A DNA stretch of 64,000 bases from the human T2T-CHM13v2.0 reference genome, Homo sapiens, in NCBI RefSeq assembly GCF_009914755.1, contig NC_060942.1. One strand, 5' to 3'. The notes beneath the pieces were generated by a model. The model saw only the letters and a program-made list of their open reading frames with translations, searched no databases and was not told the origin of the DNA. Position 1 is the first letter of the stretch; every line of letters starts with the position of its first letter. Below, piece after piece: positions 41,360 through 45,040 of the stretch. Position numbers and translations under genes: made by a program.

Positions 41360-41442
41360 GGCCAAGGCAGGATTAGGGCGGCAGCAGAAGCGCGAGAAGG
41401 AGGAGCAGACGCGCAGCGACCCAGCCCGCCCTCCGCTAACGC

Positions 41443-41482
41443 TTAAATAGCCCCGCGTCCACCTCCCTCAGCCTCCGATTGG
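41443..41482 (-). promoter_or_regulatory. TUBB8B core promoter: TATTTAA (41443-41449) and CCAAT (41478-41482)
   Basis: Both motifs are on the minus strand, 84-123 nt upstream of the ATG. Confidence 0.7.
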
Positions 41483-43075
41483 GCTCCCAGAATAAGCAAC
41501 AGCTTTACTTCCACACAGGTGCACCCACCTGTGAATCCCTTGGCGTTGAACGTCTGTTGGAGAACTCAGGTGTCCTTGCTATGGTCCCTTCCACGTTGGG
41601 GAAAGCTGCTCAGCTGGAGAACTTCTTCCCACGTCTTTAGTAAGACTAGATCCCTAGCTGAGCTGAAACTGAATTTTCCTCCCATGTGGGAGGGGAAGAC
41701 GCTTGTTTCCATATGCACGGAGTGCCTTTGCACCTGTCCTAGATTGATATTTTTGTAATGGAGATTCATTTCATCTATTAGGAGATCTGTGGTTAGGAAA
41801 GGCCTTCCATATGTTAACTCAACAGGACTTAATTATACGTTTTACTTTGGAGCAGTTCAAACCCGCAGTAAGCTATGGGTGTTGGAGATAGTCAGGCGTC
41901 TGATTTAGCTGGAGTCTTCTGTAGAGTAGGATTAGCCCTTTCACCTTTCCAGAGGACTGCGGTCTCCACACAGAGTGAAGGTAATATTGGATTCTTAAAG
42001 CTGAGGATAGGTGTTGGGTTACGCCTGCTGTGAAAGATGGGCCATTGTCACTTTGCAGGCTTTTAGATTACCGAAACTGAGGAGTTATTTCTTCTGGTAA
42101 ACATTTTTCAGATGGGGTGGGGAATGCCTCGATCTAACCAGTGAAGGTATCAGTAAGCATTAGCAAATATTTGAATCTCCTGCAGAAAGGTATCGGAGTA
42201 CATTAGAGTTGCCAGTTCTCACCTGGATAGGTTCCTCAATTTTGGACAGGTTTAACTGGAGAAGGAGAAAATTGCTGGCCGTTTGGGTCATGTCAGGCAC
42301 AGAGCTCACAGGGCTGAGTCACCTGTTTTAGTGTCTTGAAAAGATTTACCCCTATAAACAAATGAGACATTAACAGAAACAAAGAATCCCTTCTAGGGTG
42401 AAAAGAATCATGAAAGTGCTGAGTTATACTCCTGTGATTGGTACTTGGCATTAGTAATTTATTACCATCATTCAGCCTGAGGGGCCCTGGACTGAAATGC
42501 AATCCCTGGCCCATTTTTGTTCTTCTTCAGGGTATTCCGGCCCAGTTCTATGTATGCTGACCAGCACGCCCACAAGCTTCATTGGCCCTTTCAGTGCAGG
42601 GGCCTTGGCTGTGGCATCTACAAGGGCATTTCCTTTTACATGGTCAGTCTCTCTTTTGATGTCCTCTGCAATTAATTATAGTCACTTTTTGGCAGCAAAG
42701 CAGCATTCTAACAAGCTCAAAATCTGAATGATGTATGGAAAAGCCCTTTGGGGTCAGGAGTCCCCACCCATTCCAAATTGCAGCATAAGCATGAAGCACT
42801 AAAAAATCATACTTGGAATCAGTGTAAATGTTAACTTTTAAATCCTTTCCAACTGCAGGGGCCTAGTAAGTTCAATTAACTCAGCTTTTTGAGCTGAGGT
42901 CGAGGCCAGCAAGGCTTGTGCCTTGATTATCTTGTGCTAATAATAGCATATCTAGCCCTCCTGTTTTCCTGATGCATAAAACAACTTGCATCTGTTAACC
43001 ACTCTGCCTTGGGATGGTCAAGGGGCTCATCTCTCTTAAGTCTGGCCTGCTAGAATCAATTTGTTTCATAACCTG

Positions 43076-43726
43076 TGACATGCTTTGGCTGTGTCCCCAG
43101 TCAAATCTTATCTTGAATTATAGCTCCTATAATTCCTATATATCGTGGGAGGGGCCCAGTGGGAGGTAATTGAATCAGGGGATGGGTCTTTCCCATGCTG
43201 CTCTCGTGACAGTGAATAAGCCTCATGAGATCTGATGGTTTATTTATTAATTTATTTTTGAGACAGAGTCTTGCTCTGTTGCTCAGGCTGGAGTGCATTA
43301 TCATGATCTTGGCTCACTGCAACCTCTGATTCCCGGGTTCAAGCGATTCTCCTGTCTCAGCCTCCCGAGTAGCTGGGATTACAGGCACCCACCACCATGC
43401 CTGTCTAATTTTTGTACTTTTAGTATAGACGGAGTTTCACCATGTTGGCCAGGCTGGCCTCGATTTCCTCACCTCAGGTCATCCACTGCCTTGGACTCCC
43501 AAAGTGCTGGGATTACAGCTGATGGTTTTATAAAGGGGAGTTTCCCTACACAAGCTCTTTTGCCTGCTGCCATGTAAGAGATGTGACTTTGTTCCTCACC
43601 TGCCTTCTGCCATGAGTGTGAGGCCTCTCCGACCATGTGCAACTGTGAGTCAATTAAACCTCTTTTTTTATAAATTACCCAGCCTCAGATATGTCTTTAT
43701 TAGCAGCATGAGAGCAGACTAATACA
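43076..43726 (+). mobile_element. THE1 solo LTR (MaLR) with internal Alu
   Basis: TGACATGCTTTGGCTGTGTCCCC...GACTAATACA; 5-bp TSD ACCTG. Confidence 0.92.
43242..43518 (-). mobile_element. AluS within THE1
   Basis: Antisense Alu; CTGATGGTTT duplicated on both sides. Confidence 0.9.
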
Positions 43727-44482
43727 ACCTGTATGCCAGAAAGGCTGGGAGCACCTGTGGACTCTGACAGGCAAGTAGATGGGTTTATGGTTTGCCAGGC
43801 TTTAAGGGTTATGTCTGGAGGGTCGGTCTAGCAATAAGGCCTCACACTTTCATAAATATTCTCCTATTATCCACTGCTGCCCTTTAGCTTCTAGGACCAC
43901 CTTCCCTTGGTGTGGGGTCAAAAACCTGTAGGTGCTGTTCTAATGTTAGTTTATTAGCTTTGCCAACTAGAAAAGTGGTAGCAGCAATAGCTCTAAGACA
44001 TCAAGGCTAAAAGTCAGAGGATTGCTGAGGAAAGTAAAAGCTAAACTGTTTGGGGCCTCTTTCCTGGGGCAGCCTCCAGGCTACTGCAAAACGGAGGCGG
44101 TGGGCAGAAAGGCAACAATATGCAGAGCACTCAGGTGAGGGACAAAGAGCACAAGGTGGACAGTCCAAAAAGAGAAAGTGGCAAACATCTTGTTTAGCCA
44201 AATCCATTCTTCTCAATATTCCCCAGGGCCTCTAACCCTGTGGGCTTGGCCTCTAATCTGAGTATGACACCCCCAGGTCTCTAACTTTGGGCTGAGTCTC
44301 TCACCCTAATATTATACCCTAGGGCCTCTCACTTAAGTAATAGTGGGTAATCATTCTTGCCAACCTGAATGGCTTCGCAACTCTAAAAGACAGCCCACTT
44401 GCCAGCTGATTGATTCTATGTGGATTGTTTTCCTTGGAGTGGGGGTCTTGTCTTGGTGTCCCTTCATGGCATTGCTGAAAGA

Positions 44483-45040
44483 TGTTGCTGGAAAAGAGGG
44501 TCCTGATACAGACCACAAAGTAGGATTCTTAGATCTTGTGCAGGAAAAAATTTGAGGTGAGTCAGAGAGCAAAGTGAACGAAGCAAGTTTATTAGAAATG
44601 ACTCCATTACAGAGTTGGACATCCTCAGAAAACAAGAGCAGGAATGCATTGTCTTTTGTTAGTGTCTCTACTCTAACTATAAAGAGAAAGAGTTATAATT
44701 AAACTTGGAAGGTGCAGATGTACTCATTGAAGTCGGGGCTATTCGTTTTAACAATGACAATTAACCCGTTGACCTAAGCTAGCTCATTAATATTATCTTT
44801 AAGAAAAAATGCTGCACTCCTAGGACATTTATACATTTTTCAGGCTTGGTGGAAGATGTCTTGTATGGCCATAAATATTCTGCAGTTGTAATTTGTGGCC
44901 AGTAAAAAAATGTGGCTATTTTCAGACTATAGGTATTAACCTTCTAGATGCCTTGTGAGTACCTAGCTACTCATATTAAGATAGAGAATTCTAGTCATGT
45001 TTATTAAACTAGAAGCTTGATAACCATGAGTTCCTCTAAC
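44483..45040 (-). mobile_element. Class I LTR (MER41/MER4 group), acting as the 5' LTR of the ERV remnant
   Basis: Minus strand TGTTAGAGG...GGACCCTCTTTTCCAGCAACA, internal AATAAA, followed by a PBS-like sequence. Subfamily uncertain. Confidence 0.8.

What the first reader, a model, noticed from the sequence alone, without database searches (positions are those of the whole stretch)
41360..45040. TUBB8B sits in the env position of a co-oriented endogenous retrovirus
Seen on the minus strand in order: LTR (45040-44483), PBS-like site, pol tether, RNase H, integrase C-terminus ending at ~41485, then immediately CCAAT, TATA and the tubulin ATG. No env or 3' LTR follows, and only ~125 bp of tubulin upstream sequence remains. 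A candidate acceptor GTTCTCCAG| (exon start 41613) lies in the integrase tail, where class I env acceptors usually lie, and there is no ATG between it and the TUBB8B start. Inference: the duplicated tubulin swapped its native upstream regulation for a proviral one, a possible route to oocyte-specific TUBB8 expression via LTR enhancer activity or an env-like spliced mRNA.
Basis: partly seen in the sequence, partly recalled or inferred. Interest (0 to 1): 0.72.

Follow-up and report, generated by a model that had tools for sequence, protein, structure and literature searches.

The report
Tubulin gene fused to truncated provirus
The oocyte tubulin gene TUBB8B keeps only about 75 bases of its parental promoter, joined directly to the cut end of an ancient endogenous retrovirus, which shows how the TUBB8 family arose but not that the retrovirus drives its expression.

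Summary
On the minus strand lie a 5' LTR (45043-44483), a decayed leader, an internal deletion, the RT connection, a nested repeat with an Alu, RNase H and integrase. The retroviral similarity stops at 41493-41481.

From 41492 the sequence is homologous to the TUBB4B locus on 9q34.3: core promoter, exons, introns and about 3 kb of downstream flank. No env or 3' LTR is present in the window.

The junction was made once. At least 29 places in this genome carry it, including TUBB8 on chr10. Older copies keep gag-to-integrase. The chr18, chr10, chr16 and chr9q copies share a later deletion that brings the LTR to 3.2 kb from the gene.

So the native upstream region was physically replaced by proviral sequence. 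No evidence here shows that the provirus drives expression.
- All annotated transcripts start 32 nt after the retained TATA box.
- The retroviral splice-donor site reads GC, not GT, in all 10 copies examined.
- The proposed acceptor is weak.
- The LTR is no better conserved than the introns.

The env-like spliced mRNA is unlikely. An enhancer or silencer role remains open. I found no paper describing this junction.

The parts
44483..45043 (-). 5' LTR of a class I (gamma-like) endogenous retrovirus. TATAAA at 44833, AATAAA at 44593, ends TGT...AACA.
   Evidence: Aligns to both LTRs of a chr3 provirus and the ends match. It is the only copy in the window. The genome search gave 492 first-look candidates, of which 40 were scored.
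44008..44482 (-). Leader. The PBS position (about 44460-44482) has lost TGGT. The homolog of the major splice donor reads G-C at 44402-44401.
   Evidence: Homologous to chr3 provirus leader positions 2177-2656. The PBS deletion and the GC donor are present in 10 of 10 TUBB8-linked copies.
44007..44031 (-). Scar of an internal deletion that removed the rest of the leader, gag and most of RT (chr3 provirus positions 2656 to 8349).
   Evidence: The deletion is shared by the chr18, chr10, chr16 and chr9q copies. It is absent from the chr4q, chr14, chr12 (two), chr1 and chrY copies, which stay colinear with the chr3 provirus.
43734..44007 (-). RT connection ('tether') remnant.
   Evidence: 76.6% identical to the chr3 provirus region whose ORF hits RT_RNaseH_2 at 8.4e-12.
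43077..43733 (-). Nested interspersed repeat that itself carries an Alu (about 43239-43521), inserted in pol.
   Evidence: Absent from the chr3 provirus. Its arms match repeats elsewhere at 80-83%. An Alu match sits at the same place in all 10 copies.
41493..43076 (-). RNase H, integrase zinc-binding domain, integrase core and integrase tail, with stops and frameshifts.
   Evidence: Pfam hits. Homology to the chr3 provirus in blocks from 43076 to 41481 (83%, 75% and 78%).
41481..41493 (-). ERV/tubulin breakpoint. GGAGCCC is shared by the ERV relative and the window; TUBB4B has GCAGCCC at that place, so microhomology is possible.
   Evidence: Local alignments. ERV-only and tubulin-only genome hits end and start here. 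GC rises from 0.41-0.52 to 0.59-0.76 and CpG o/e from 0.47 or less to 0.72-0.89 across it.
41418..41492 (-). Retained TUBB4B-type core promoter: TATTTAA at 41449-41443 and CCAAT at 41482-41478.
   Evidence: Aligns to the TUBB4B upstream region, including its TATATAA. The annotated TSS is 41417 (hub table).
38987..41417 (-). TUBB8B gene: four exons with an intact 444-codon ORF.
   Evidence: Hub annotation. The ORF was checked. The gene is 78% identical to the TUBB4B gene, introns included.
35919..38864 (-). Downstream flank copied along with the gene from the TUBB4B locus. It now carries exons of lncRNA LOC124908042 on the + strand.
   Evidence: 69-83% identical to chr9 149481846-149484672. 0 of 15 ORFs gave a Pfam hit.

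Best explanation
The TUBB8 family was founded by one DNA-level rearrangement. A piece of about 5.6 kb from the TUBB4B locus (9q34.3) was joined to a class I provirus broken in its integrase tail. The piece ran from 75 nt upstream of the TSS, through the four-exon gene, to about 3 kb beyond it. It therefore took the place of env and the 3' LTR. Shown: the two homologies, the breakpoint, and its presence in every copy examined.

The fused block then spread to subtelomeres and pericentromeres. Later, in the lineage that holds TUBB8 and TUBB8B, gag and RT were deleted.

TUBB8B is transcribed from its retained TATA-box core promoter. This rests on the annotation and the sequence.

Inferred: the restricted expression comes first from losing everything upstream of -75 while keeping a sharp TATA-type core promoter. 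In mouse, that promoter class is preferred by the oocyte factor TBPL2. On this reading the provirus is upstream flank whose contribution is untested and need not exist.
For: Junction and parentage.
- ERV-only hits end at query 320 and 309. The only tubulin hit with non-coding similarity (chr9, 149.48 Mb) starts at query 309. Other tubulin loci match exon 1 coding sequence only.
- Homology to that chr9 locus runs 41492-39146 (78%), 38495-36178 (69%) and 36130-35919 (83%). There is no non-Alu homology above the LTR or below 35919.
- The chr9 gene is an intact beta-tubulin ending ...EEEGEFEEEAEEEVA. The name TUBB4B is recalled from that tail and from the gene's position.

Single origin.
- 29 of 41 matches span the junction, including chr10 TUBB8.
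- All 10 copies examined stop at chr3-provirus positions 10746-10781.
- 6 of those 10 keep leader-gag-RT-integrase. The other 4 share one deletion.

Not a retroviral capture: introns, the gene's own promoter and downstream flank are all present, and there is no 3' LTR.

Core promoter.
- The TATA box is conserved with TUBB4B and lies 32 nt before the annotated TSS.
- TATA and ATG are intact in the chr18, chr10 and chr16 copies, and both are mutated in the chr9q and chr4q copies.
- The preference of TBPL2 for TATA-like sharp promoters comes from the abstract of PMC7755920 (mouse).
Against: - No expression data were available here. The TSS comes from RefSeq models, which may be blind to rare or oocyte-only 5' ends in a multi-copy region.
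- The co-orientation and the later deletion that brought the LTR to 3.2 kb are compatible with a regulatory role.
- Whether the 75-nt core promoter alone gives oocyte-restricted expression is untested. The TBPL2 data are from mouse.
- The order of events (ERV already broken, or broken by the same event) is not resolved.
- The 69% identity of the downstream flank looks old for a primate-only event, unless this CpG-rich subtelomeric DNA evolves fast.
Confidence: 0.7

Rival explanations
1. The proviral flank is a working regulatory element. It would act as an enhancer in oocytes, or as a silencer in somatic cells, on the retained core promoter, and so contribute to oocyte-restricted expression. 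The element could be the LTR or ERV-internal sequence, for example the CACCTG E-box at 41521-41516, about 100 nt before the TSS.
For: - The provirus is the only sequence upstream of -75.
- The arrangement is kept in both intact genes, chr18 and chr10.
- A clade-specific deletion moved the LTR from about 6.5-9.3 kb to 3.2 kb.
- The CACCTG is present in all 10 copies but reads CATTTG in the chr3 ERV.
- That E-boxes of this kind serve oocyte factors such as FIGLA is recalled, not tested.
- One paper reports ERV1 expression correlating with TUBB8 in oocytes, but for elements on chr2-5, not in cis (PMC8450412, passages read).
Against: - The LTR is no more conserved than neutral-looking segments: 1.6-3.1% against introns 0-7.9% and RNase H-integrase 1.7-4.1%.
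- Pseudogene copies (chr16, chr9q) carry the same LTR, deletion and E-box.
- A six-base motif is expected by chance.
- No chromatin or reporter data exist.
Confidence: 0.2
2. TUBB8B is expressed as an env-like mRNA: transcription starts in the LTR and the RNA is spliced from the leader donor to the acceptor at 41613.
For: - LTR and gene are co-oriented.
- The LTR has TATAAA at 44833.
- There is an AG at 41615-41614 and no ATG from 41613 to the start codon.
Against: - The donor homolog is GC in 10 of 10 copies.
- There is no GT[AG]AGT in 44803-41420.
- The acceptor tract is 44% pyrimidine, and 170 of 252 AGs score as high or higher.
- The first exon would hold 7 ATGs, and six AATAAA lie on the way.
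- No annotated exon lies upstream of 41417 (hub table).
Confidence: 0.04
3. The junction arose in a different order. A longer TUBB4B-derived duplicate existed first. A provirus then integrated upstream of it, and a later deletion removed env, the 3' LTR and the distal promoter.
For: The end product is identical. Deletions inside proviruses are common, and one did occur here later.
Against: - No TUBB4B-locus homology lies upstream of the 5' LTR in the window (10 kb of chr9 upstream sequence compared).
- None of the 10 copies examined keeps any env, 3' LTR or extra promoter sequence.
Confidence: 0.12

Closest known systems
Mosaic segmental duplications of human subtelomeres and pericentromeres, which create new paralogs with altered ends (PMC11821543 lists extra TUBB8 copies; passage read)
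   Same: A genomic piece with introns and flanks is pasted beside unrelated sequence and then re-duplicated to many chromosome ends and pericentromeres. The gene's 5' end is changed by the breakpoint.
   Different: Here the founding breakpoint can be placed to within 13 nt: inside a promoter on one side and inside a provirus's integrase tail on the other. The product is an essential oocyte gene.
LTR-derived promoters and first exons of oocyte genes (the MaLR/ERVL class; the TBPL2-dependent ERV transcription of PMC7755920, abstract read)
   Same: An LTR lies upstream of, and in the same direction as, an oocyte-expressed gene.
   Different: The annotated TSS is in the native core promoter, not in the LTR. 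The donor site is GC. The LTR belongs to a class I gamma-like ERV, not to MaLR or ERVL. No chimeric transcript is known.
Retroviral transduction of cellular genes (acute transforming retroviruses)
   Same: A cellular gene stands in place of env, behind pol, in the viral orientation.
   Different: The tubulin keeps its introns, its own promoter and 3 kb of downstream genomic flank, and there is no 3' LTR. It was not captured through an RNA intermediate.

Membership tests
Class I (gamma-like) endogenous provirus | Paired LTRs | tested here: not met
   Only a 5' LTR is present (45043-44483). There is no second copy in the window. The related chr3 provirus has both, 87.4% alike over 334 nt.
Class I (gamma-like) endogenous provirus | Primer binding site just after the 5' LTR | tested here: inconclusive
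   The position is homologous to TGGTGTCC... of the chr3 provirus, but TGGT is deleted in 10 of 10 TUBB8-linked copies. The tRNA type was not determined.
Class I (gamma-like) endogenous provirus | pol with RT connection, RNase H and integrase, in that order | tested here: met
   The Pfam hits are colinear but sub-threshold. They are supported by homology at about E 1e-142 to a provirus with Gag_p30, zf-CCHC, RVT_1, RT_RNaseH_2 and RNase_H.
Class I (gamma-like) endogenous provirus | gag and env | tested here: not met
   gag is deleted in this copy but kept in 6 of the 10 paralogous copies examined. env is absent from all 10 and present (TLV_coat) in the chr3 relative.
Co-opted LTR promoter (LTR-gene chimeric transcript) | Transcription start inside the LTR | not testable with these tools
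   No RNA data were available. All four RefSeq transcripts start at or below 41417 (hub table).
Co-opted LTR promoter (LTR-gene chimeric transcript) | A usable splice donor after the LTR and an acceptor before or in the gene | tested here: not met
   The donor homolog is GC in 10 of 10 copies. There is no GT[AG]AGT in 44803-41420. The acceptor at 41613 is weak.
Co-opted LTR promoter (LTR-gene chimeric transcript) | The LTR is better conserved than neutral neighbours in functional copies | tested here: not met
   Between chr18 and chr10 the LTR differs by 2.7%, the introns by 2.6-5.3% and exon 4 by 2.3%. Pairs that include pseudogene copies differ by 1.6-3.1% in the LTR. The test has low power because the copies show signs of gene conversion.
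DNA-level (segmental) duplicate of TUBB4B | Homology in introns and in flanking DNA beyond the transcript | tested here: met
   41492-39146 at 78%, including introns, and 38864-35919 downstream at 69-83%.
Retrovirally transduced gene | Intronless insert flanked by viral sequence on both sides | tested here: not met
   The gene has four exons with introns and its own promoter. No viral sequence lies downstream.

The most novel reading that the evidence does not exclude
The provirus supplies the tissue specificity of a gene essential for human oocyte meiosis. After the founding breakpoint removed all but 75 nt of the ubiquitous TUBB4B promoter, ERV-derived sequence became the element that turns TUBB8 on in oocytes or keeps it off elsewhere. 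The candidates are the LTR, brought to 3.2 kb by a later deletion, and the integrase-tail E-box. On this reading a primate-specific fertility gene owes its expression pattern to a retroviral remnant.
Probability: 0.15. Interest if true: 0.75.

Novelty: new member of a known kind. Interest (0 to 1): 0.45.

Why it matters
TUBB8 is described as primate-specific and expressed specifically in oocytes and early embryos, and its variants cause oocyte maturation arrest (abstracts of PMC11746963 and PMC10159944). How it acquired that expression pattern is not discussed in what I could search. The phrase 'TUBB8 promoter' occurs in 0 papers, and a 2025 systematic review contains neither 'promoter' nor 'duplication'.

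This analysis gives a concrete anatomy:
- the parent locus (TUBB4B);
- a breakpoint 75 nt before the TSS;
- a proviral upstream flank shared by every copy;
- a later deletion in the lineage of the two intact genes.

The question becomes a small set of reporter and 5'-end experiments. The anatomy also gives markers for sorting the roughly 30 near-identical paralogs.

Tried and rejected
- Second LTR or env downstream of the tubulin (the idea that the tubulin was inserted into a complete provirus): none found in the window.
- Profile or PDB support for the very last integrase pieces of the window: 0 families for 3 pieces, and 0 PDB sequences for the 36-residue piece.
- Identity of the downstream flank. 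I recall FAM166A as the neighbour of TUBB4B, but 0 of 15 ORFs hit Pfam, so this is left unnamed.
- Naming the ERV family: no repeat library was available, so I give only 'class I, gamma-like', from Gag_p30, TLV_coat and the weak MLVIN_C hit.
- Constraint test on the LTR by paralog divergence: no signal, low power.
- Literature.
  - TUBB8 + LTR: 12 papers.
  - TUBB8 + 'endogenous retrovirus': 6 papers.
  - TUBB8 + TUBB4B + 'segmental duplication': 0 papers.
  - TUBB8 + subtelomeric + primate: 3 papers held, 1 listed.
  - 'TUBB8 promoter': 0 papers.
  - TUBB4Q: 45 papers held, 15 listed, 2 read by passages.
  - None describes the cis arrangement.
  - Supplementary tables of oocyte LTR-chimera studies were not searched and could list TUBB8.
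- Other primate genomes are not held, so the age of the junction could not be checked directly.
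Full report
WHAT IS THERE

Read on the minus strand, the stretch 45043-41481 is a remnant of a class I (gamma-like) endogenous retrovirus. Three colinear pol pieces hit Pfam:
- RNase_H at 42644-42862, E 4.6e-4;
- Integrase_H2C2 at 42293-42526, E 8.3e-5;
- rve at 41873-42067, E 0.017.

All three fall below Pfam's own cut-offs, and 11 of the 15 pieces scanned gave nothing. One further piece gave only a weak, unrelated hit (DUF4423, E 0.16).

The stronger evidence is nucleotide homology to an independent provirus on chr3, found with the junction as query and fetched as L011 and L012. 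Its two LTRs both align to window 45041-44483. Its leader aligns to 44568-44031, its RT connection to 44007-43726, and its RNase H and integrase to 43076-41481 (E down to about 1e-142).

That provirus carries Gag_p30 (1.5e-15), a zinc knuckle, RVT_1, RT_RNaseH_2 (8.4e-12) and RNase_H (1.1e-7). Downstream of the point that matches window 41481 it has about 2.6 kb with an env TM hit (TLV_coat, 3.7e-4) and then the 3' LTR. Its LTRs are 87.4% alike over 334 nt. On usual primate substitution rates (my assumption) that puts the family at some tens of millions of years.

The window copy is interrupted at 43733-43077 by another interspersed repeat that itself holds an Alu.

THE JUNCTION

In the genome-wide search with window 41800-41300, ERV-only matches end at query 320 and 309. 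The one tubulin locus with non-coding similarity (chr9, 149.48 Mb) begins at query 309. Five other matches, which I take to be other tubulin loci, cover only query 439/440-498/500, the exon 1 coding sequence.

Local alignments put the end of ERV similarity at 41493-41481 and the start of tubulin similarity at 41492. GGAGCCC is shared by the ERV relative and the window; TUBB4B has GCAGCCC at that place, so microhomology is possible. GC content and CpG density step up at the same point.

The chr9 gene is an intact beta-tubulin whose tail reads ...EEEGEFEEEAEEEVA. I call it TUBB4B from recall of that tail and of its place near the end of 9q.

Homology to its locus covers the core promoter, exons, introns and 3' UTR (41492-39146, 78%). 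It continues through the downstream flank to 35919 (69-83%). There is none upstream of the LTR or beyond 35919.

So 133 nt before the ATG, and 75 nt before the annotated TSS, are tubulin-derived. Everything further upstream is proviral. The TATA box (41449-41443) is shared with TUBB4B.

ONE FOUNDING EVENT

29 of the 41 matches span the junction:
- four identical tandem copies on chr18, about 54 kb apart;
- TUBB8 on chr10;
- copies at 16q, 4q and 9q ends, on acrocentric and pericentromeric regions, on chrY and on chr1.

I fetched ten copies. All ten stop at the same place in the provirus, chr3-provirus positions 10746-10781. chr10 TUBB8 is colinear with the window at 96.3% from 46185 to 36159, LTR included.

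Six copies (4q, 14, two on 12, 1, Y) keep the provirus from leader through gag and RT to integrase. The chr18, chr10, chr16 and chr9q copies share one deletion (chr3-provirus 2656 to 8349), which brings the LTR from about 6.5-9.3 kb to 3.2 kb from the junction.

Only chr18 and chr10 have TATA, ATG and exon 4 all intact:
- chr16 has a frameshift;
- chr9q and chr4q share ATG-to-ACG and a TATA change;
- the older copies examined carry stop codons in the fourth coding exon (chr12a, chr12b, chr1B) or showed only exon 1 in the fetched stretch (chr14, chrY).

HOW IT AROSE

The tubulin keeps its introns, its own promoter and 3 kb of genomic flank, and no viral sequence follows it. It is therefore a DNA-level duplication pasted beside a broken provirus, not a retroviral capture and not an insertion into a complete provirus.

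The alternative order is provirus integration upstream of a longer duplicate, followed by deletion. It is not excluded, but it has no trace in the ten copies or upstream of the LTR.

DOES THE PROVIRUS DRIVE EXPRESSION?

The hub's RefSeq table shows no exon upstream of 41417.

For an env-like mRNA the sequence support is poor.
- The site homologous to the retroviral major donor is GGTAAGT in the chr3 provirus but GGCAAGT in all ten TUBB8-linked copies.
- No GT[AG]AGT occurs between 44803 and 41420.
- The acceptor at 41613 has 8 of 18 pyrimidines. 170 of 252 AGs in the ERV body score as high or higher. The gene's own acceptors have 67-83%.
But a first exon started about 30 nt after the LTR's TATAAA would carry 7 ATGs.

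Divergence between the four subtelomeric copies gives no sign of constraint on the LTR: 1.6-3.1%, against introns 0-7.9% and RNase H-integrase 1.7-4.1%. This test is weak, because the copies are mosaics. Between chr18 and chr10 the 3' UTR differs by 0% and the downstream flank by 0.4%, but the core promoter and 5' UTR by 9.8%.

An enhancer or silencer role cannot be judged from sequence.

MY READING

The physical replacement of the upstream region is shown. A working role for the provirus is not.

I commit to transcription from the retained TATA core promoter. The changed expression would then stem chiefly from the loss of the rest of the TUBB4B promoter. A sharp TATA-type core is the promoter class that oocyte TBPL2 prefers in mouse (PMC7755920, abstract). 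That link is inference.

LITERATURE

No paper I could search describes this arrangement. PMC8450412 (passages read) correlates ERV1 elements on chr2-5 with TUBB8 levels in oocytes, not in cis. The papers mentioning TUBB4Q that I read by passages do not mention an LTR. A 2025 review of TUBB8 lacks the words 'promoter' and 'duplication'.

The ERV is surely visible in repeat annotation tracks (my expectation, not checked). The new content here is the breakpoint, the parent locus and the history, not the repeat itself.

Noticed in passing
window 41300-41800 and 44483-45043; G000 chr18 95316, 149362, 203284: The TUBB8B unit is present four times on chr18p at spacings of 54,016, 54,046 and 53,922 bases. 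Both the junction and the LTR are 100% identical between the four. Window 1-10000 repeats 54000-64000, judging by the lncRNA pairs in the hub table.
   Followed up: partly
window 41360-41492 versus L015 (chr10): The core promoter plus 5' UTR is the most diverged segment between TUBB8B and TUBB8 (13 of 133, 9.8%), while the 3' UTR (0 of 169) and the downstream flank (0.4%) are nearly identical. This points to a mosaic history, probably gene conversion. chr10 has CGAAT where chr18 has CCAAT.
   Followed up: partly
L023 (chr9q end) and L024 (chr4q35): These two copies share ATG-to-ACG at the start codon and an A-to-G change in the TATA box, although exon 4 of the chr9q copy is still open. Yet chr9q has the proviral deletion and chr4q does not, so promoter and provirus give discordant histories.
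   Followed up: no
L017 (chr12, 38.15 Mb): This pericentromeric copy has lost window-equivalent 41516-41425, that is the junction, CCAAT, TATA and TSS, by a clean deletion.
   Followed up: no
window 41516-41521: A CACCTG E-box sits in the integrase tail about 100 nt before the TSS. It is present in all 10 TUBB8-linked copies but reads CATTTG in the chr3 ERV. That such boxes serve oocyte bHLH factors is recalled, and a six-base motif may well be chance.
   Followed up: partly
window 35919-38864, + strand: Several exons of lncRNA LOC124908042 lie in the flank co-duplicated from the TUBB4B locus, so the lncRNA is probably a remnant of the parental neighbour gene (FAM166A by recall). 0 of 15 ORFs hit Pfam.
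   Followed up: partly
G000 chr3 200846621-200847169 and chr3 75756842-75757405: Two LTR copies 93% identical to the window's LTR have no matching junction hit on chr3. Some duplicons therefore seem to carry the LTR part without the tubulin.
   Followed up: no
L018/L029 (chr1, 226.68-226.70 Mb): Two copies of the ERV-tubulin block lie head to head as a palindrome about 10 kb apart. They are among the most diverged copies (80-89% identity to the window).
   Followed up: no
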